From: an uncultured bacterium
GTDB taxonomy: Bacteria; Chloroflexota; UBA5177; JANWHV01
Direction: 5' to 3'
Assembly: GCA_963827235.1 (NCBI GenBank)
Contig: CAWHAE010000010.1
Location: forward strand, 288,001-352,000
Length of the DNA: 64,000 bases
Below are positions 177 to 7,710 of the stretch, piece by piece (position 1 is the stretch's first letter; every line of letters begins with the position of its first letter). The notes below the pieces were generated by a model. That model ran no database searches. It was not told the origin of the DNA and saw only the letters and a list, made by a program, of their open reading frames with translations. Made by a program: the position numbers and the translations under genes.

Positions 177-3043
177 AGATTACCCTCTACCTTCGCTATG
201 CCACCCGCTCGCTCTGGCGCGGCGGTAGGCGCACCGGGCTGGCCGTCCTATGTGTGACAGTCGGCGTGATGGCCCTGGTCGCGCTGCAACTGATAGGGCT
301 GATGGCCAACGACGCCCTCACCAGCAACATTCGCGCCGTGAACGGCGGCGATCTTGCCGTCTCACCGGCCGCGGGGAGTTTTACCGCGCCCGACCTGCGC
401 TTCTTCTCCTGTCTGCGCGCAGGCATCGCACCTGCCGAGCGCGCCTCGTGCGCCGCCGCGCACCTCAAGGCGAACGGAGAGATCCTCGAATACACCGCCT
501 CTGCCGGTGGCGGAGCTACCGCCTATCCATCGGATGGGCGAACGGTGCTCGTGGTCTTACAGGTGGTGAACACCAGGAGTGACCCTGTCGCCGGGGCTCC
601 ATACCCGCTGGTGGGCTCGCCGGCCCTCCAGCAGCCACCAGGCGCCGATTTTCAGCGGCTGTTGGCCGCCGGCGCCAACAATGCCATAGTGACCAAGAGC
701 CTGTTCGATGCCGTGGGCGAGCCCCTGGGATCCACCGTGCGGGTGGCCACTGCCGGCAGCGCGGTCTTCAGGGTGACCATCGCCGGGGTATTGGCCAATG
801 AGGGCGCCTACGCGCTGGGTACTCCCCAGATGGTGATCCCGCGCACTCTCCTCCGTGCGGTAGCGCCTGATCAGGCAGGCCTGTACAACACGGTCAATCT
901 GACCACCAGCAACTCGGCGCGTACCAACCAGGTGCAAACCGATGTGCAGGCGCATTTCCCCCTGGTCACCCTGACTACCACCGAGTCCCTCTTGCAGCAA
1001 AGCAAGCAGCAGGTGGATTACGTCCGCAAGTTCCTACAAATCGTCGGCTTGATGGCCTTGTTGATCGGCGGTGTGGGCATTGCCAACACGATGCAGGTGC
1101 TGTTGCGCCGCCGCCGCATCGAGATTGCGATGCTGAAGACCACCGGCTATCGGCGTCGTGATTTGTATGTGCTCTTTGGCCTGGAGGCTGGGTTGCTGGG
1201 GCTGGTAGGCGGTGTGCTGGGGGCGAGTGCCGCCGTGGGCCTGGGTCTCGGCCTCAAGAGCCTGGCCGAGGCGGCGCTGAGCCTTTCCCTCCCCTTTGCG
1301 CTTGACTGGCCCACCGTCGGGTCAGGCGTGCTGATCGGCGTGGTGACGGCCCTGGTTTTTGGCCTCCTCCCGATTGTCAGGGCCACCGCCGTCCGCCCGC
1401 AAACCGTCCTCCGAGAGATCGAGGAGCGGCGTGGCTGGCGCAGCCGAATTGTGACTGCCGGCTTGCTGTGCCTGCTCTGCTTTGTGTTCTTCCTCGTAGC
1501 TACCGCGATCATGGGGGATCTGATCTGGAGTGCCGGTGTGGTTCTTGGCGGCGCGTTCCTGGTGGGAGTACTCAGTCTCGCGTTTACCGGCATCGTCTGG
1601 TTGCTCAGCGCCCTCCCCGTCCCCGAACGGGCGACGCCCAGCTATCTGCTGCTGGTGACCGTGGCGGTGGCGGCCACCGTGGCCCTAACCGTGGCCTCAC
1701 CGGCCTTCGGCCTCCTGGCGCTCCTGGGTGCCCTGCTTGGCTATGCACAACTGTTCTTTCCGCGTCGCTGGAAGGCCATGGTGAAGTTGTGTTTGCGCAA
1801 CATCGGACGGCAGCGAAATCGTACCGTGGCAACTCTTCTGGCGCTCTTTGTGGGCGTCTTCTCGGTCAGTTCGGTCCTGGTCCTGGGTCAGGGCATCAGC
1901 GACAAGCTCCAGAACGGCATTGCCAACAGTGTGCCCTACAATATGATTGCCAGGGTACCGACAGACCAGCAGGCCGCAATCGACGCGGCACTGGTCACCC
2001 TGCCGGGATTGGTCCATGTGGGGGCCGACCAGCCACTGGTGGTCAATACTGCCTACCAACTGACGCCCGTATGCGTCGGCAATAAGCCGATCAGCGCCTT
2101 CATCACCCCTGGGTCCAGCACCAACGCACTGGGCCAACTGAGCAGTGTGCAAGGCTACGATCTGGCGCGCTATCCCGGTGGGGTGCCCAACGTGAGCATG
2201 GCCTCCGGCAATGCTGCCGGCCGGATGCTGACCGTCGCAGACGCCGGCACCACGGCCGTTCTGGCTCGAAGCAGCTTGCGGAACGCTCCCTTCCATCTCC
2301 GGGTAGGCAGCACAGTCACGCTGTTCAACGCACTCGGCGCTGGTCCTGGGGCCAGCGGTGCGGGCAGTGTCGCTTGCGGCACCCTCGGCCAGGGTCGTGG
2401 GCACCAGGGTGTCACCACCGTCACCATCGCCGGCTTCTATAGCCAGCCGTTCCTGACTCTCGACCTGGTCGGGCTCTATGGGAGCGATCGGTTGGTGCGC
2501 GCGATCGGCGGGCGCCAGACCGAGATCACCTGCTATCTCAAGGTGGGCAGCAACCAGACGGGCACCGCGGTACGGCTCCTGGGACTCGCCGCGCCAAAGG
2601 CGTACATTATCAACACATCGGACTTAGCGGTGACAATCAACCAGCTTCTGAGCAAAGTGGTTACGGCGTTGACCGCTGTGGCCGGGCTCACGCTCTTGGC
2701 CGGGATCCTCATTATCGCCAACGCCGTTGCCCTGGCCATGTTGGAGCGGCGACGCGAGGTTGGCATTCTCAAGTCGGTGGGCTATACCAGCCGCACCGTC
2801 CTGGGGCAAGTCCTGGTAGAGAACTGCTTGATCGGCGCTCTGGGCGGCTTCCTGGCGATGGCTCTGGTGACCGCGCTGATTTTCGTGCTCAGCAGGGCAG
2901 TCTTCCAGACGAGCTTGGAGGTGGGGATTCCGATCACCTTCCTGGTGATCCTGGGGACGATGGCGCTGGCGATGACCATCGCCGGGCTGGTCGCCTGGCG
3001 CGCCGTTCGGGTGCGCCCGGTGGAGGTGCTGCGCTATGAGTGA
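173..3043 (+). CDS. FtsX/MacB-family ABC transporter permease (two FtsX domains)
   Basis: 956 aa. Two repeats of the motif RRRIEIAMLKTTGY / ERRREVGILKSVGY, multiple TM segments and large extracytoplasmic loops. Confidence 0.92.
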   Translation: MKITLYLRYATRSLWRGGRRTGLAVLCVTVGVMALVALQLIGLMANDALTSNIRAVNGGDLAVSPAAGSFTAPDLRFFSCLRAGIAPAERASCAAAHLKANGEILEYTASAGGGATAYPSDGRTVLVVLQVVNTRSDPVAGAPYPLVGSPALQQPPGADFQRLLAAGANNAIVTKSLFDAVGEPLGSTVRVATAGSAVFRVTIAGVLANEGAYALGTPQMVIPRTLLRAVAPDQAGLYNTVNLTTSNSARTNQVQTDVQAHFPLVTLTTTESLLQQSKQQVDYVRKFLQIVGLMALLIGGVGIANTMQVLLRRRRIEIAMLKTTGYRRRDLYVLFGLEAGLLGLVGGVLGASAAVGLGLGLKSLAEAALSLSLPFALDWPTVGSGVLIGVVTALVFGLLPIVRATAVRPQTVLREIEERRGWRSRIVTAGLLCLLCFVFFLVATAIMGDLIWSAGVVLGGAFLVGVLSLAFTGIVWLLSALPVPERATPSYLLLVTVAVAATVALTVASPAFGLLALLGALLGYAQLFFPRRWKAMVKLCLRNIGRQRNRTVATLLALFVGVFSVSSVLVLGQGISDKLQNGIANSVPYNMIARVPTDQQAAIDAALVTLPGLVHVGADQPLVVNTAYQLTPVCVGNKPISAFITPGSSTNALGQLSSVQGYDLARYPGGVPNVSMASGNAAGRMLTVADAGTTAVLARSSLRNAPFHLRVGSTVTLFNALGAGPGASGAGSVACGTLGQGRGHQGVTTVTIAGFYSQPFLTLDLVGLYGSDRLVRAIGGRQTEITCYLKVGSNQTGTAVRLLGLAAPKAYIINTSDLAVTINQLLSKVVTALTAVAGLTLLAGILIIANAVALAMLERRREVGILKSVGYTSRTVLGQVLVENCLIGALGGFLAMALVTALIFVLSRAVFQTSLEVGIPITFLVILGTMALAMTIAGLVAWRAVRVRPVEVLRYE

Positions 3044-3769
3044 CCGGACACCAGCCGCCATCGGCCGCACGAGCAGAGCGCTGCCTGGGTGGTGGCTGGC
3101 TCTGAGGGCGGTCCGGCGAATCCTGAGATAGGGACCGGTCGACCGCCGCACTTCTGCGATGCCGTCTGCCGCGCAGCAGCCCGCCGTGTCCAGCGCCAGA
3201 CTAATGCCCAACAGCACGGCGCTGCCCGGGCCCGCCGGTGTCGTTTCGCGCATCCGGAGGGCGTGGCTCGTCAGCGTGAGCAACGCAGGCAGCGCGAAGC
3301 AGCCTGGCGCGCCCTGCTTACCCGCGAACGAGACGAGTGACGTGCGGCCGCTTTTTCATTACTCTGGGTGCAAGTCTCAGAATCTGCAGTGCGCTCAACC
3401 CGACGACGGCTCGGGCCGGCACAGGGCAAGCAGTGATGGTCCGTACATTATGAAGATGCGACAGCACGCAAAGCTCTGCGAGAGGAGCGCAGCATAAGCC
3501 GCTCCGGGCTTCACTCTTGACCAACCCTTTTGCAGTTGCACACTTTATGCGGGTCTGCACTGTAGTGGTCGACGTAGCCTGCGCCAGGCAGCAGCGCGGA
3601 GCTGGCGATCGGATCGGGAGCGCAGCCCGCTCGGCGATTCGAGGAGGTGGAGTTCGCCGATTTGCCTTCGCCGTGGAGATCTTGCGCCTGGGTGCGCAAT
3701 ACGATCGGAGTGAGGAGTCGGCGGCGATTGTCGCCTCAGGGCTTGACCCGCGAGATGCGCCGGACTCCA

Positions 3770-4043
3770 GGCGATGCCGGCCCTCCTGCTGCACCCGCGA
3801 CAGGCCGCCGCGGCCAATCAGGTCGCCGGTCAGGCGGTCGTACGCCGTCCACGTATGGACGCCGTCAGTCACCCACCGCCCGGCCATACGATCCGCTTCG
3901 CCTCCGGGCTTCTCCAGGGTCCAGACGCCGAACCACGCGGCAACCGCCGGGTCCTGAAAGAGCCGCCACACGCTCTCGGCGTGCCGTGGACCGACGGGCT
4001 CCAGCCGAAGACGCGAAGTGAAGCGCACACGCGCCGGATCCAT
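3770..4043 (-). pseudogene. GNAT (RimJ/RimL-type) acetyltransferase, N-terminal fragment
   Basis: FTSRLRLEPVGPRHAESVWRLFQDPAVAAWF...GDLIGRGGL resembles the family N-terminus. Similarity is lost after about 90 aa and there is no acetyl-CoA motif. The lower boundary is approximate. Confidence 0.6.
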
Positions 4044-4104
4044 GGGCACAATCTCTCCAGGCAATGGGGTGTCGTCAGCCCGGTGCCTGCGTACCTACGA
4101 AGAT

Positions 4105-4285
4105 ACCAGAGGCCGCATCAGGGCCAGTACGAGTTGCGAGAACTTCTCCCGTATTCGCCCGCGCGCGAACTGGACTCTGATCGCCGGGTCGACTGTGCCG
4201 TCGATCAGAGCAGCCGGCGTGTCGCGGGCGGAGACGTCCGTGATGTCGCTCGCCATGCTGCTGTCTACTATGTTCACGATTTGAG
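4105..4285 (-). mobile_element. IS110-family transposase internal remnant
   Basis: NIVDSSMASDITDVSARDTPAALIDGTVDPAIRVQFARGRIREKFSQLVLAL resembles the IS110 segment NIKLSSVASDxxGVSARAMLxALIxGxxDPxxLAxLAKGRLRxKxxxLxxAL. No start codon or catalytic domains. Confidence 0.65.
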
Positions 4286-4758
4286 GTAACGGCGCTCTGG
4301 TCGCACGGAGCGGACGTTGGGCTTTTCGCCGAGCCCGCCGCGCATCGAGCGGACTCACGTATGAAGATGCAACCTCACGTTCGCCGTCGTGGGGCGATGG
4401 CCTCGTGAGGTGACGGGTGATCTGGCTGGCCCGACTAGTCGTGCCTGGGCGCAAGGACTTCGGGTTGGGTCATACACTGGACCGAGTTTCAACGTAGAGC
4501 GTGCCCGCCTGCAGGCATGCAGCGTGGCCCACGCCTCTATCGTCGACAGCGCACCTAGCAAGAGGTGGCGAACAGTTGAGCACACGTGGAACCGTGGCGC
4601 AGAGATGCCAAGCGCGCCTGGTAGAGTGCACGCCGCGCACCTAGTCCTCCCGCGGCCACAGAGTGGTATGACGGGGAAAACGTCGGGCTAATTGTCAGTG
4701 TAGAATTGTGTGTGTCCGAGCATCGTATTGATTTCTACAGAAGCAGAAGGGGCTGCAC

Positions 4759-5295
4759 ATGGCCGTCAATGCGTATCTCAACTTTACTCTATATGATGGC
4801 ACCACTCTCACGTCTGAATCGCAGAACACGGTACACCCAGGATGGTCCGAGGTTGCCGACTTCAGCTTTGACATCGAGCAGGTCCTCAATATAGGGTCGG
4901 CCAGTGCGGGCGCGGGTGCGGGGAAGGTCACGTTCAACCCGTTCTCGATCACGAGAAAAGTGGATATCAACTCCCCAATTCTCTTTGAGATGTGCTGCTC
5001 CGGTACACCCTTCAAGTCCGTTGACCTGGCTCTCCGCAGGGCTACCGGCGCCTCCGGTACCCCGAGCGCCACGCAGGATTATCTGGTCTTCTCGTTCAAG
5101 TTGGTCGCCGTGCGCACGATCAGCTGGGCCCAGGGAGATGAAGGGCCCGGTGAGGTTATCACGTTTGAGTATGGCGGATTGGATATCTCCTATTACAAGC
5201 AAAATGCCGATGGGAGTTATGTTGCCAAGCCGGCGTTCGCAGGCTGGAACCGGGTGAAGAATCTTGCGGACACGGCGACTGCGGTCATCCAATGA
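4759..5295 (+). CDS. hcp: Type VI secretion tube protein Hcp (TssD) family, orphan
   Basis: 178 aa with Hcp hallmarks: AYL...ESQNTVHPGWSEV..FSF, GAGAGKVTFNPFSITRKVDINSPILFEMCCSG, EVITFEYGGLDISYYKQNADG, AGWNRVKN. RBS-like AGAAGGGG upstream. Confidence 0.93.
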   Translation: MAVNAYLNFTLYDGTTLTSESQNTVHPGWSEVADFSFDIEQVLNIGSASAGAGAGKVTFNPFSITRKVDINSPILFEMCCSGTPFKSVDLALRRATGASGTPSATQDYLVFSFKLVAVRTISWAQGDEGPGEVITFEYGGLDISYYKQNADGSYVAKPAFAGWNRVKNLADTATAVIQ

Positions 5296-5831
5296 CAGAC
5301 GGGGAGAATCAGAGTATGAGCATGCTCGAAGAGACCGTAGCCGCGTTGCAGCGCCGGGTAGAGGCGCTCGAGATGGAGAATACCGGACTGCGCCGGCACG
5401 TGCAGGGTCGTGCGCTTGCCGATCAGCCGACGAGCCGCCGCCGCCTGTTGTTCGGCAGTGCGGGGCTGCTTGGGGCGTTGGCCGGAGGCTCGCTGTTGGC
5501 GCACACTTCGGTCGCATCCGCCGCATCCGACCCGCAGGTCGAGGACCGGCAAGTAGCCACCCTTCGCATCTCTCCGACGGTCATGCGCAGTAAAGGCGTG
5601 TACTGGGCTGAACATGCGTGGCACCTGGGACCCCAGTTCAAGGGCGATCGCGCGCCGCTGGTTATTGCCACGGCGACAGACGACTACATGCACCGCGATG
5701 TGACCGTGCAGTGTTCCTGCTCGGTACGCGTTGAGGGGACGCCCGGTGACTATGTTGCGGTCCTGATGGTTCGCGGGATTAGCAGCCACGCACGGAGTGT
5801 CGACGTTCAGGCCGTCGCATTTGGCGACTGA
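5292..5831 (+). CDS. Hypothetical protein: coiled coil + twin-arginine signal + small beta-rich domain
   Basis: ATGA overlap with hcp (alternative start 5316). Coiled coil LEETVAALQRRVEALEMENTGL, then TSRRRLLFGSAGLLGALAGG...ASA (Tat-like). Confidence 0.75.
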   Translation: MTDGENQSMSMLEETVAALQRRVEALEMENTGLRRHVQGRALADQPTSRRRLLFGSAGLLGALAGGSLLAHTSVASAASDPQVEDRQVATLRISPTVMRSKGVYWAEHAWHLGPQFKGDRAPLVIATATDDYMHRDVTVQCSCSVRVEGTPGDYVAVLMVRGISSHARSVDVQAVAFGD

Positions 5832-5839
5832 ATGAGCCG

Positions 5840-5883
5840 GGTGGGCCGTCCCATCGCCTCCAAAGGCGATGGGACGGCCCACC
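5840..5883 (+). terminator. Strong hairpin, probable terminator closing the hcp operon
   Basis: Perfect 20-bp stem GGTGGGCCGTCCCATCGCCT-ccaa-AGGCGATGGGACGGCCCACC, 8 bp after the stop codon, with only a weak T tail. Confidence 0.75.
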
Positions 5884-6071
5884 TATTGGCCAATCCGAAG
5901 AGCATTGTGGCAGTGGATGTCGGCACTGCACGCAGGATATCTTGACTCTCGGTGCCGGCCACGAGATTGAGAATGCCATTCAGCTGGTCTTGCCCTCGCC
6001 CACTTTATTGGTTGGCCGCCATATAGAGGCAACAAGCCGCTAGCGTGCGTACTGCAGTACGATTGTGGCAA

Positions 6072-7178
6072 ATGCGGAACGCTCTCCACGCCATCGCACT
6101 CATATGGCTCACCTGGGCGCTGGCCGCGGCGCTCCTACCGTTGCACGCCGGCGCGGCTACCAGTGCCGCCTGGCTTACGACGGCGTACGAGGGGTCCGCG
6201 GCAGGGAGCGTCCAGGGCACGCGGCGCCCGGCTGTGCCGAGCTACAGCCTGTCCTATCCGCCGGAGTGGGCTCTCCAGCGGTGGCCCGACACGCTGGCAA
6301 CATTCGGCCAGCTTTCGCTGTGGTCGCCGTCTGGTAGTGTCGTCGACCTCGTGATCGTCCCTCTCAGACCGGGCGGACCGACGCTCCACGACGTGATCGA
6401 CCACGATGCCGCGTTTCTGCACGGCACCACGCGCGAGCCGGTAGCACTTCCTCTCGGCCGCGGCACGCGGCTGACGGGGGTGCCGGCTTCTGCCGGCATG
6501 GTTGAGACTGTGCTCTACGTGCGGCACATGGGCTTCGTGTACCGCATCAACGCCGACACGACGGCCGGCGGCCTACCGGACAGGACACTGGATGTGCTTG
6601 CCGCCGGCATCCACGTGCCCGCCAACGCCGCAGTGTCACCCGCGCGACCACCTTCGCATCTTCCGCCGACGGGATCGTGCTGCCATTGCCCCGCGTGGGG
6701 GTACGGATGGGGGCGCGTCCTCACCAGCCTGGATGGCGTACAGGTCTACTCCAACGCCGGTGACGTCGACAACGGTTGCACGAGCACCTACGGCATCTCG
6801 TATCAGTGCGTGGAGCTGGTTCAACGCTATTTCTCCATCCGGTGGGGCTACCCCGCCATCTGGCAGGGCGTGGCTGCGGCTGCCGACATGCGAACGCACC
6901 ATCCGGCGGGTGTCATCTTCGTGCCGAACGGCGGCTCGCCGGCACCCCGACGAGGCGACTCCGTGCTGTTTTACGGCGGCGGATTCGGGCACGTCGCGTT
7001 AGTGTCTGCGGTCGACAGGAAGGCCGGAATCGTACGTCTGGTTGAGGAGAACTGGTCGCCTACCGGCACCGCCAGCCTGACAGTGTACCCTGACGGGACT
7101 GCCGGCATCCGTGACAGCGCCTTCGGGTCCTATATAGTTGCCGGCTGGCTCCACAGTGTGAAGAACAGGGCGCCGTGA
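6072..7178 (+). CDS. Secreted CHAP-domain amidase/peptidase with an N-terminal PsbP-like domain
   Basis: Signal peptide; YSLSYPPEW motif in the N-domain. CHAP catalytic motifs YQCVELVQRY, GHVALV and EENW. Confidence 0.82.
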   Translation: MRNALHAIALIWLTWALAAALLPLHAGAATSAAWLTTAYEGSAAGSVQGTRRPAVPSYSLSYPPEWALQRWPDTLATFGQLSLWSPSGSVVDLVIVPLRPGGPTLHDVIDHDAAFLHGTTREPVALPLGRGTRLTGVPASAGMVETVLYVRHMGFVYRINADTTAGGLPDRTLDVLAAGIHVPANAAVSPARPPSHLPPTGSCCHCPAWGYGWGRVLTSLDGVQVYSNAGDVDNGCTSTYGISYQCVELVQRYFSIRWGYPAIWQGVAAAADMRTHHPAGVIFVPNGGSPAPRRGDSVLFYGGGFGHVALVSAVDRKAGIVRLVEENWSPTGTASLTVYPDGTAGIRDSAFGSYIVAGWLHSVKNRAP

Positions 7179-7404
7179 TGTACCTGCCGGGGGCGCATCG
7201 CCCGGTGCGTCACGGGCGGTTCTGCGGCTGGCCCTCCTGCGCACAGAGCTCGAGGCGCTGGGGAGCCCTGCGGATGGTCAGAACGACGCCGCAGCGGTCA
7301 CCAGCCAGAGCAGCACGCCACGTTCATGATGATTCCCTGCATTCCGCCGACTGGTGAATTGGGTGCGCCGACTCGCGCTCGCCGTCAGCAGCGACGGCTG
7401 GGCA

Positions 7405-7710
7405 CTCGCTACTGACCCTGCTCGATCCCGACGTCGTGCTGCGGGCCGACCGCACCGTCGCGGCGCGACCGCGGGCGCAGCTGGCCCGTGAGGTTCGCGG
7501 TGCGACGGCCGTCGCCCAAGCCTTCTCCGGGCGGGCCCAGGGCGTGCAACCCGCCCTGGTCGACGGCGCTGTAGGAGCCGTCTGGACGGTGGGCGGCACG
7601 CCGCGCGGTGTCTTCGAATTCCTGAGTATCTCGGGGAAAATCGTCGCCATCGACGTGCTCGCCGACGCCGCCTTGCTGCAGGAGCTTGACGTGCAGATTC
7701 TCCAGGATGA
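7405..7710 (+). pseudogene. ECF41/SigJ-type sigma factor, C-terminal SnoaL-like fragment
   Basis: LLTLLDPDVVLRAD...EVRGATAVAQAFSGRAQGVQPALVDGAVGAVW...GKIVAIDVLAD is typical of the SigJ C-terminal extension. Sigma regions 2 and 4 are absent. Confidence 0.7.

What the first reader, a model, noticed from the sequence alone, without database searches (positions are those of the whole stretch)
4759..5883. Orphan Hcp in a probable monoderm, translationally coupled to a Tat-signal protein: candidate T6SS-independent tube/ring system
Seen: an intact, well-conserved Hcp gene overlaps (ATGA) a 179-aa gene, and the pair is closed by a perfect 20-bp hairpin. No tssB/C, vgrG, PAAR, baseplate or membrane-complex gene occurs in the 64 kb. 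Known: canonical T6SS is a diderm machine and Hcp forms hexameric rings that stack and chaperone cargo. Inference: if the host is a monoderm Chloroflexota without a T6SS elsewhere, this two-gene operon would be a repurposed Hcp module. One option is Hcp rings exported by hitch-hiking on the Tat partner or assembled as a surface tube.
Basis: partly seen in the sequence, partly recalled or inferred. Interest (0 to 1): 0.8.

Follow-up and report, generated by a model that had tools for sequence, protein, structure and literature searches.

The report
Hcp ring gene with Tat-leader partner
A soil-type Chloroflexota genome with no type VI secretion machine and no outer-membrane genes keeps intact Hcp tube-protein genes, each next to a small protein with a twin-arginine export leader, which suggests that Hcp rings may be exported here without any injection apparatus.

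Summary
An intact Hcp gene (4759-5295) is followed by a small gene (5292/5316-5831), and a perfect 20-bp hairpin closes the pair. The assembly is 7.98 Mb and 95.9% complete. It has no sheath, VgrG, PAAR, gp25, gp19, TssM, TssA/F/G, Omp85 or LpxC, but it has TatC. No TssC was found in 401 genomes of the phylum.

"Orphan" is wrong. The genome has three Hcp-partner pairs on three large contigs, plus a tandem-Hcp gene.

The partner is a tiny, genus-restricted family. It has a GCN4-like coiled coil, then SRRxLL, a Gly/Ala-rich hydrophobic stretch and AxA, then a roughly 100-residue domain of unknown fold.

The same coiled-coil/twin-arginine leader is fused directly to Hcp domains in at least 32 protein clusters from metagenomes. 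The nearest non-T6SS relatives of this Hcp, in Actinomycetota, are start-overlapped with an unrelated Tat-signal protein.

The window's Hcp is 50-57% identical to genuine T6SS tube proteins of Acetobacteraceae and is under purifying selection.

Best reading: a T6SS-independent Hcp module whose export is tied to the Tat pathway. Export and binding are inferred, not shown.

The parts
4759..5295 (+). hcp: 178-aa Hcp/TssD-family protein. It has no signal peptide; only 9 codons are open upstream of the ATG.
   Evidence: Pfam T6SS_HCP E 5.8e-19. PDB 1y12 E 2e-13. 50-57% identical to T6SS-cluster Hcps. dN/dS 0.148 against the G154 orthologue. Stop-to-stop frame of 187 aa.
5292..5295 (+). ATGA overlap of the hcp stop with the first in-frame ATG of the partner ORF. 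This is probably not the start that is used.
   Evidence: Most homologue lengths (168-172 aa) and all paralogue N-termini point to the later ATG.
5301..5306 (+). GGGGAG, a Shine-Dalgarno-like site 9 nt before ATG 5316.
   Evidence: Read from the sequence.
5316..5831 (+). Partner gene, 171 aa. Residues 1-30 are a heptad coiled coil with Asn22. Residues S40-F46 read SRRRLLF (5433-5453). A Gly/Ala-rich hydrophobic stretch runs L44-A62 (5445-5501). A67-S-A69 lies at 5514-5522. The conserved C-terminal domain runs from about L83 to D171 (5562-5828).
   Evidence: No Pfam, PHROG or PADLOC family. Only GCN4-like coiled-coil hits in the PDB. 11 close homologues among 5.8e9 proteins. 38 profile hits among 1.84e9. 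dN/dS of the C-domain is 0.162.
5840..5883 (+). Perfect 20-bp hairpin with a 4-nt loop, 9 nt after the partner's stop. It is a likely transcript end or stabiliser and has no U-tract.
6045..7178 (+). Downstream gene for a 377-aa protein with an N-terminal hydrophobic signal and a C-terminal CHAP domain. It is possibly associated but not shown to belong.
   Evidence: Pfam CHAP E 1.7e-8. Single copy in the genome. A 56%-identical orthologue lies 2.7 kb from another partner/Hcp set in G181.

Best explanation
This is a working two-gene module that uses an Hcp ring protein without any contractile injection system, in a bacterium that lacks outer-membrane biogenesis genes. The Hcp descends from genuine T6SS tube proteins. 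It has no export signal of its own.

The gene next to it encodes a small protein with an unusual leader: a short dimer-type coiled coil, then a twin-arginine motif, a weakly hydrophobic stretch and an AxA site. A conserved domain of about 100 residues follows the leader.

Most likely sequence of events (inferred): the two proteins are made from one transcript; folded Hcp binds the partner's folded domain in the cytoplasm; and the partner's leader takes the complex through TatABC (piggy-back export). Hcp then ends up outside the membrane as a ring or short tube.

Shown: gene content, conservation of the pairing, the fusion forms, purifying selection and the absence of T6SS. Inferred: co-transcription, binding, Tat dependence, cleavage and the final location.
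For: 1. T6SS-independent. All CIS markers tested are absent from a 95.9%-complete assembly. VipB was found in 0 of 401 phylum genomes, although Hcp occurs in 17 of those 401.

2. No Omp85 or LpxC; TatC present.

3. Pairing across the 11 partner-family loci examined:
- In 6 an Hcp gene lies within 100 nt: window, C12, C9, G127:C701, G154:C8 and metagenome L141.
- In 1 an Hcp lies 2.4 kb away: G181.
- 2 are cut by contig ends.
- 2 have no Hcp: a C-terminal fragment on C18 and a broken copy at G154:C10.

4. The three own-genome pairs are old. The partners are 27-32% identical to each other and their Hcps belong to different Hcp types.

5. Fusion forms. Of 11 proteins of 230 aa or more that matched only the leader, 6 carry a Pfam Hcp domain. 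A search with one of them listed 28 of 120 hits as 242-272-aa leader-Hcp fusions. All 26 that were newly fetched show a coiled coil, T/S-R-R-x-L/V/F-L/F and AxA. P0147's Hcp part is 40% identical to the C12 Hcp, and its leader aligns with the C12 partner's leader.

6. An independent analogue. In 3 Actinomycetota loci (L050, L064, L068) a related Hcp is start-overlapped with an upstream 176-219-aa protein that has a Tat motif. That protein is unrelated to the partner here (hhalign probability 1.9%). Their genomes have no VipB.

7. Purifying selection on both genes: dN/dS 0.148 and 0.162.

8. In the own genome the full leader occurs only in the three partner proteins.
Against:
- Curated Tat-signal models are below threshold for the partner and only weak for the fusions (19.6 and 17.6 bits against 22.7).
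- The RR pair sits at residues 41-42, later than in ordinary Tat signals (a rule recalled, not tested). An uncleaved signal-anchor is therefore possible.
- An Hcp hexamer is a large cargo for Tat (size recalled, not computed).
- The partner family is tiny and was found full-length only in one genus (5 of 401 genomes).
- Two partner copies have no Hcp, and both copies in G154 carry frame breaks.
- The hairpin has no U-tract, and no promoter consensus was found.
- The assembly is a bin with 9.06% contamination and 4% missing.
Confidence: 0.5

Rival explanations
1. Hcp stays in the cytoplasm and acts as a ring-shaped chaperone, as it does for small T6SS effectors. It holds the partner's domain of about 11 kDa until the partner alone is exported by Tat. 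On this reading the partner is the cargo, not the carrier.
For: The partner's mature domain is small, about 100 residues. Hcp is described as a chaperone and receptor of effectors (abstract and passages of PMC5874247). Hcp has no signal. The adjacency and co-conservation fit this reading equally well.
Against: The same leader is fused directly to Hcp domains in many proteins. Other Hcp-domain proteins of Chloroflexota and Actinomycetota carry Sec, lipoprotein or membrane-anchor N-termini. In these lineages Hcp itself is evidently meant to leave the cytoplasm.
Confidence: 0.2
2. The leader is not cleaved. The partner is a membrane protein with its coiled coil in the cytoplasm and its C-domain outside. 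Its cytoplasmic zipper, or Tat-inserted anchor, docks Hcp rings at the inner face of the membrane, and Hcp is never exported.
For: The n-region is long and conserved, with a GCN4-like heptad pattern. It would be lost on cleavage, which argues that it has a function of its own. The RR pair lies at residues 41-42. Tat HMMs are below threshold.
Against: The hydrophobic stretch is Gly/Ala-rich with a mean hydropathy of only about 1.5-2.0 over 18 residues. In nearly all members small-x-small (AxA-type) residues follow it. Fusion proteins place the Hcp domain after the hydrophobic stretch, that is, on the far side of the membrane.
Confidence: 0.12
3. The module serves a contractile or tail-like machine that is encoded in the unassembled 4% of the genome, or is too divergent for the profiles used.
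For: The assembly is 95.9% complete and in 21 contigs. Profile searches can miss divergent proteins.
Against: Seven Pfam families plus five tblastn queries gave nothing. Four genus-mates and 396 further genomes of the phylum have no VipB. A T6SS needs an outer membrane, and its markers are missing here.
Confidence: 0.05
4. The hcp gene is a decaying remnant of a horizontally acquired T6SS fragment, and its neighbour is coincidental.
For: GC dips to 0.58 over hcp against about 0.65 around it. Its closest relatives outside the genus are proteobacterial and acidobacterial.
Against: The frame is intact. dN/dS is 0.148. Related metagenome proteins are 74-87% identical. There are three independent pairings in one genome.
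Confidence: 0.03

Closest known systems
T6SS tube protein Hcp/TssD (e.g. P. aeruginosa Hcp1, PDB 1y12; the Hcps inside Acetobacteraceae T6SS clusters)
   Same: Same family by Pfam and by sequence match to solved Hcp1. It is 50-57% identical to Hcps that sit between TssC and ImpE/TssF/TssG/ClpV in 58 of 80 fetched loci. The conserved GSxSxGAGAGK loop region is retained.
   Different: There is no sheath, spike, baseplate or membrane complex in the genome, and none of the outer-membrane marker genes tested (Omp85, LpxC). It lacks an insert of about 16 residues after the first strands that its T6SS-cluster relatives have: 8 residues against a median of 24. It is paired with a leader-bearing protein.
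Tat piggy-back (hitch-hiker) export, in which a signal-less subunit is carried by a partner with the twin-arginine signal. The [NiFe] hydrogenase and DMSO reductase subunit examples are recalled. The principle is stated in the abstract of PMC10924467, seen in the listing.
   Same: A signal-less protein is encoded next to a small protein with an RR leader. TatC is present.
   Different: No redox cofactor is involved. The leader has a conserved coiled-coil n-region. The cargo would be an oligomeric ring. Nothing has been shown experimentally.
Orphan hcp islands and specialised Hcps with added domains in Gram-negative bacteria (abstract of PMC13098142, listing; passages of PMC3482391 on toxins fused to HCP1 domains)
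   Same: hcp genes away from a core cluster. Hcp domains combined with other modules.
   Different: Those serve a T6SS encoded elsewhere in the same cell. Here no T6SS exists, and the added module is an N-terminal export leader, either in cis or on the neighbouring gene.
Hcp-domain proteins with Sec, lipoprotein, membrane-anchor or collagen-like N-termini seen here in Chloroflexota, Actinomycetota and Armatimonadota
   Same: Hcp domains in T6SS-less genomes that carry export or anchoring signals.
   Different: Those carry the signal on the same chain, and none has the coiled-coil/RR leader. The window's form is split over two genes.

Membership tests
Hcp/TssD (PF05638) | Sequence match to the family model above the curated cut-off | tested here: met
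   69.1 bits against 23.5. TIGR03344 gives only 37.5 bits against 58.9, so it is not a typical Hcp1-subfamily member.
Hcp/TssD (PF05638) | Homology to solved hexameric Hcp rings | tested here: met
   phmmer against the PDB: 1y12 E 2e-13, plus 14 further Hcp chains.
Hcp/TssD (PF05638) | Forms hexameric rings or tubes | not testable with these tools
Type VI secretion system (as a system) | Sheath TssB/C, spike VgrG/PAAR, baseplate TssE/F/G, membrane complex TssM in the genome | tested here: not met
   0 hits for PF05943, PF05954, PF05488, PF04965 and PF06761. tblastn with TssA/C/F/G/ImpE gave none. TssB, TssK and TssL were not searched separately.
Type VI secretion system (as a system) | Diderm host | tested here: not met
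   No Omp85 and no LpxC. The assembly is 95.9% complete.
Extracellular contractile injection system / phage tail | Phage-type sheath, gp19-type tube, gp25 or gpD baseplate genes | tested here: not met
   PF04984, PF06841, PF04965 and PF05954 gave 0 hits. There is no PHROG structural hit beyond an unnamed Hcp-like family.
Tat substrates (partner protein) | Twin-arginine motif S/T-R-R-x-F-L-K followed by a weakly hydrophobic stretch and AxA | tested here: met
   SRRRLLF at residues 40-46, LLFGSAGLLGALAGGSLLA, then ASA. RR is present in 14 of 15 aligned family members.
Tat substrates (partner protein) | Match to curated Tat-signal models at their cut-off | tested here: not met
   There was no PF10518 hit. 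TIGR02811 gave 15.1 bits against 48.45. Short-signal models are weak tests.
Tat substrates (partner protein) | Tat translocase present | tested here: met
   TatC at G000:C8:306398-307030, E 4.4e-54.
Tat substrates (partner protein) | Tat-dependent export | not testable with these tools
   Needs an experiment.
Tat piggy-back pair | Stable complex of the signal-less protein with the signal-bearing partner before export | not testable with these tools
The only support is genomic: adjacency and fusions.

The most novel reading that the evidence does not exclude
Hcp rings form the core of a previously unrecognised, T6SS-independent extracytoplasmic system in bacteria that lack an outer membrane. 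Hcp reaches the cell surface through the Tat pathway by means of a dedicated coiled-coil/twin-arginine leader. The leader is either fused to Hcp or supplied by a small adaptor protein, as here. Outside the cell, Hcp would assemble into rings or tubes that act as a surface structure or as a carrier for neighbouring secreted proteins: the CHAP peptidoglycan hydrolase, and the NHL and LCCL proteins beside the three pairs.
Probability: 0.3. Interest if true: 0.85.

Novelty: new variant of a known kind. Interest (0 to 1): 0.7.

Why it matters
Hcp is regarded as a part of one machine, the T6SS of diderm bacteria, and its presence is used to annotate that machine. Here Hcp genes are maintained under selection in genomes with no T6SS and without the outer-membrane marker genes tested (Omp85, LpxC). 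They are repeatedly tied to general export signals: in trans through a dedicated partner, or in cis through fusion.

If export is confirmed, three things would follow:
- The ring/tube fold would have a second, machine-free life at the surface of monoderm bacteria.
- A new kind of Tat cargo and a new, recognisable leader type would be defined.
- Automatic "T6SS" calls in Chloroflexota and Actinomycetota would need correcting.

Seven full-text searches found no paper describing Tat- or Sec-linked Hcp, or Hcp function in T6SS-less monoderms. That library omits most subscription journals, and supplements were closed.

Tried and rejected
Tools that gave no result
No fold is claimed.
- ESM Atlas: the window's sequence is not held. 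The stored homologue P0010 gave one hit at 0.75, below any useful level, and has no structure.
- The hosts of the leader-Hcp fusion proteins therefore could not be named.
- RNA evidence: no RNA holder was listed.

Ideas tested and dropped
- Partner C-domain as a degenerate Hcp: hhalign probability 0.4%. Rejected.
- Partner related to the actinobacterial Tat partner: hhalign probability 1.9%, with only the RR stretch aligned. Rejected.
- Partner as a phage or defence protein: no PHROG or PADLOC family.
- Riboswitch or other RNA in 3000-7500: none at E <= 1.
- Hairpin as a repeated element: it is unique in the genome.
- Loss of the functionally important "extended loop" L2,3: rejected. The shortened segment lies before Hcp1 residue 24, and the window's Hcp has the same length there as P. 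aeruginosa Hcp1.
- A conserved neighbour beside orphan Hcps of Acidobacteriaceae and Alphaproteobacteria: none was evident.

Searches with thin results
- Wider survey of the partner: the metagenome scan with A3 failed for lack of a conserved stretch. With A1 it gave 1 locus.
- The actinobacterial Tat partner was found in 1 of 381 sampled Actinomycetota genomes, its own.
- The tree grouping of the window's clade with the actinobacterial Hcps has SH-aLRT 90 only, and long branches are involved. It is treated as a lead.
Full report
WHAT IS THERE

The window is G000:C10:288001-352000, part of a 1.08-Mb contig in a 7.98-Mb assembly of 21 contigs. The assembly is 95.9% complete with 9.06% contamination.

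ORF 4759-5295(+) encodes a 178-aa protein. It matches Pfam T6SS_HCP (E 5.8e-19) and the solved Hcp1 ring protein 1y12 (E 2e-13). Only nine codons are open upstream of its ATG, so it has no room for a signal peptide.

ORF 5292-5831(+) overlaps the Hcp stop as ATGA. Seven of its 10 other database homologues are 168-172 aa, and all three paralogues begin at the equivalent Met. The likely start is therefore ATG 5316, 9 nt after GGGGAG. That gives a 171-aa protein and a 20-nt gap between the genes.

Nine bases after its stop lies a perfect 20-bp hairpin (5840-5859 / 5864-5883; -53.9 kcal/mol, z -8.4). It is unique in the genome and has no U-tract.

Upstream of the pair lie an FtsX/MacB-type permease and a truncated GNAT-like ORF. 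Downstream lies a CHAP-domain protein.

THE HOST

Own-genome searches gave no hit for any of these families:
- VipB/TssC, phage sheath, gpD/VgrG, PAAR, gp25, T4 gp19 and IcmF-related/TssM.
- TssA, TssC, ImpE, TssF and TssG, taken from a real T6SS locus and run by tblastn. ClpV found only ClpB-like ATPases at 39-40% identity.
- Omp85/BamA and LpxC, although the same searches hit 7 and 5 of the 14 control genomes.

TatC is present.

A same-genus genome (G127) holds the protein P0010, which NCBI names "Chloroflexi bacterium".

In a sample of 401 genomes of the phylum, VipB was found in 0. Hcp was found in 17, a count that includes G000 and one unpublished genome, G145.

Within the limits of a 96%-complete bin, the host is a Chloroflexota bacterium without a T6SS or phage-tail-like system and without the two outer-membrane marker genes tested (Omp85/BamA and LpxC).

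NOT AN ORPHAN

The genome has four Hcp-family genes:
- the window's gene;
- a TssD-type gene on C12;
- a divergent 148-aa gene on C9 (25.3 bits against a cut-off of 23.5);
- a 293-aa tandem-Hcp gene on C9.

Three of these are followed by a paralogue of the window's partner:
- C12: 13-nt gap; partner 32% identical, E 3e-22.
- C9: 89-nt gap.
- The window itself.

The window's and the C12 Hcp are barely alike. The pairing has therefore persisted, or been rebuilt, across very divergent Hcp types.

A fourth partner copy, on C18, is only a C-terminal fragment with no Hcp nearby.

THE PARTNER FAMILY

It matches no Pfam, PHROG or PADLOC family. NCBIfam gave only the sub-threshold TIGR02811 Tat-region hit.

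A word-indexed search of 5.8e9 proteins found 11 members. A profile search of 1.84e9 cluster representatives found 38 hits at E <= 1e-3, of which 16 were at E <= 1e-10.

Among 401 phylum genomes, full-length matches occur only in the genus: G000 plus 4 of 4 genus-mates. The other 21 genomes gave matches of 25.4 bits or less, mostly over profile positions around 26-100 (the RR and hydrophobic part), in larger ORFs.

Architecture:
- Residues 1-30 form a heptad coiled coil with a conserved Asn at an a-position. The only PDB hits are GCN4 zippers, E 0.03.
- A variable linker follows.
- Then S/T-R-R-x-L-L, present in 14 of 15 aligned members.
- Then a Gly/Ala-rich stretch of about 18 residues with modest hydropathy (about 1.5-2.0) and small-x-small residues (ASA in the window).
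- Then a conserved domain of about 100 residues (W102, F108, P114, DDY122-124, C-terminal AxAFG) with no detectable relatives.

The C-domain is not an Hcp (hhalign probability 0.4%).

In the own genome the full leader occurs only in the three partner proteins. Ordinary Tat substrates match only its RR and hydrophobic part.

CONSERVATION OF THE PAIRING

I examined eleven partner loci.
- In six an Hcp gene lies within 100 nt: window, C12, C9, G127:C701, G154:C8, and the metagenome contig L141. In L141 the order is partner then Hcp, and the Hcp scores 28.6 bits.
- In G181 an Hcp lies 2.4 kb away, behind a DUF6345 gene.
- Two loci (G127:C60, G172:C217) end inside that DUF6345 gene and cannot be judged.
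- Two have no Hcp: the C18 fragment, and G154:C10, which is in two frames.

Against the G154 orthologues, dN/dS is 0.148 for Hcp and 0.162 for the partner's C-domain. G154's partner has a frame break at the RR motif. G154 is a 20-contig bin, and this may be an assembly error or a real defect.

THE LINK BETWEEN THE LEADER AND Hcp

Several profile hits matched only the leader. I examined eleven such proteins of 230 aa or more.
- Six carry a Pfam Hcp domain after the leader: P0147, P0149, P0154, P0155, P0156 and P0167 (E 1e-25 to 8e-11).
- The other five carry a beta-helix domain, Gly-rich domains or unknown domains.

A search with P0147 listed 120 proteins. Of these, 28 are 242-272-aa forms that cover 84-100% of the query. 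All 26 that I newly fetched show the coiled coil, T/S-R-R-x-L/V/F-L/F (mostly TRRDLLR), and AxA before the Hcp domain.

P0147's Hcp part is 40% identical to the C12 Hcp (E 4e-40), and its leader aligns with that of the C12 partner. The leader that sits on the neighbour gene here therefore sits on Hcp itself elsewhere.

ORIGIN AND RELATIVES OF THE WINDOW'S Hcp

It belongs to a strongly conserved subfamily (FSFDIEQxLNIGSQSxGAGAGKVTFNPFSITRK).

I fetched 80 loci from other genomes.
- In 58, Hcp sits in a T6SS cluster (TssA, TssC, Hcp, ImpE, TssF, TssG, ClpV). These are mostly Acetobacteraceae and Rhodospirillales.
- In 22, no T6SS gene lies in the fetched flank.

None of the 80 holds a partner homologue.

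A quick maximum-likelihood tree of 86 rows places the window's clade (5 rows, support 99) in a group of 11 non-T6SS rows. That group also contains the Actinomycetota Hcps and one Fimbriimonas Hcp, and it is nested among alphaproteobacterial T6SS Hcps. Support for it is only SH-aLRT 90, and long branches are involved, so I treat this as a lead.

The window's clade has 8 residues where T6SS-cluster relatives have a median of 24. This segment lies before Hcp1 residue 24. It is not the L2,3 "extended loop" that the literature links to assembly and effector delivery, and that loop is retained.

AN INDEPENDENT PARALLEL

In three Actinomycetota loci (L050, Nakamurella L064, Jatrophihabitans L068), Hcp starts at the last codon of an upstream 176-219-aa gene. 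That gene encodes a Tat-type motif (LSRRxAL..., AxA) followed by a beta-rich domain of about 130 residues. The domain is unrelated to the partner here. It gave one sub-threshold AOC_like hit.

Their genomes, and those of two Solirubrobacterales, have no VipB (0 of 5).

Elsewhere, Hcp domains carry their export or anchoring signal on the same chain:
- a membrane anchor plus collagen-like repeats (L077, L083, L150; L134 in Chloroflexota);
- Sec-type signals (L076, L082, L121, L147, L155);
- a lipoprotein-type signal (L125);
- an RR-containing anchor (L149).

Hcp occurs in 14 of 381 sampled Actinomycetota genomes, a count that includes G402 and the unpublished G406.

INTERPRETATION

The data show a selected, T6SS-independent Hcp module whose second gene supplies a twin-arginine-type leader.

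The most economical mechanism is piggy-back export of folded Hcp on the partner through Tat. I hold this at about 0.5. Binding, Tat dependence, cleavage and location are all untested. The Tat call rests on motif and composition, with curated models below threshold.

The main rivals are:
- Hcp acts as a cytoplasmic chaperone of an exported partner.
- The partner is an uncleaved membrane anchor that docks Hcp inside the cell.

The fusion proteins and the many signal-bearing Hcps argue that in these lineages Hcp itself leaves the cytoplasm.

What the ring would do outside is open. The three pairs lie beside genes for a CHAP hydrolase, an NHL propeller and a double-LCCL protein, each with a hydrophobic N-terminus on inspection. 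The CHAP gene is single-copy and has an orthologue near another partner/Hcp set in G181. This is suggestive only.

PRIOR KNOWLEDGE

Seven full-text searches found nothing on Tat- or Sec-linked Hcp, or on Hcp in T6SS-less monoderm bacteria. I read passages of PMC3482391 and PMC5874247, and otherwise only listings and abstracts. Supplements were closed. The library omits most subscription journals, so "not in print" is limited to those searches.

VERDICT

The mechanism is plausible but unproven.

Noticed in passing
Proteins P0147, P0149, P0154-P0156, P0167, P0169-P0279 (no loci held): A family of 241-272-aa proteins from metagenomes has an N-terminal coiled coil, then T/S-R-R-x-L/V/F-L/F, a Gly/Ala-rich stretch and AxA, then a TssD-type Hcp domain. 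They make up 28 of the 120 hits listed. Their hosts are unknown.
   Followed up: partly
L050:9342-10552, L064:9390-10552, L068:9462-10555: In three Actinomycetota genomes without VipB, an Hcp of this subfamily starts at the stop of an upstream gene. That gene encodes a protein with a Tat-type motif and a beta-rich domain of about 130 residues. Its family was found in only 1 of 381 sampled Actinomycetota genomes.
   Followed up: partly
L077:9530-10567, L083:9500-10549, L150:1405-2664(-), L134:1474-2268(-): Single proteins combine a membrane anchor, Gly-X-Y collagen-like repeats and a C-terminal Hcp domain. They occur in Solirubrobacterales, in another Actinomycetota genome and in one Chloroflexota genome.
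   Followed up: no
G000:C9, L086:4252-5133(-): A 293-aa protein has two Hcp-like domains in tandem (Pfam E 6e-14, two stretches). It lies between a methyltransferase gene and an ECF-type sigma factor gene, about 1 kb from the C9 Hcp-partner pair.
   Followed up: partly
window 6045-7178; L139:1956-3170: The CHAP-domain protein downstream of the pair is single-copy in the genome. Its 56%-identical orthologue in genus-mate G181 lies 2.7 kb upstream of a different partner paralogue, a DUF6345 gene and an Hcp.
   Followed up: partly
G000:C18:261200-261493 (L087:5195-5500): A 101-aa ORF holds only the C-terminal domain of the partner family (53% identical to the window's). It has no leader and no Hcp nearby, so it is likely a gene remnant.
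   Followed up: partly
L137:7700-8260(-) and L117:1492-2100(-) (G154): Both partner copies of genus-mate G154 are split between two frames. One break falls exactly at the RR motif. This could be an assembly indel or real decay, and it was not resolved.
   Followed up: no
window 3318-4064(-): A 248-aa ORF is GNAT-like only in its first 100 residues or so (Pfam Acetyltransf_3). It is 63-74% identical over that part to loci on C16 and C9, and the rest looks like read-through. It is probably a truncated paralogue.
   Followed up: no
window 4065-4758 and 4500-5400: About 690 bases upstream of hcp have no convincing gene. GC falls from about 0.65 to 0.58 across hcp. No Rfam family and no sigma-70 consensus were found there.
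   Followed up: partly
L011, L034, L048, L084 (Acidobacteriaceae); L027, L041, L051, L032, L039, L072 (Pseudomonadota): Hcps of the same subfamily in diderm genomes lie with no T6SS gene within the fetched 10-kb flanks. No conserved neighbour was evident.
   Followed up: partly
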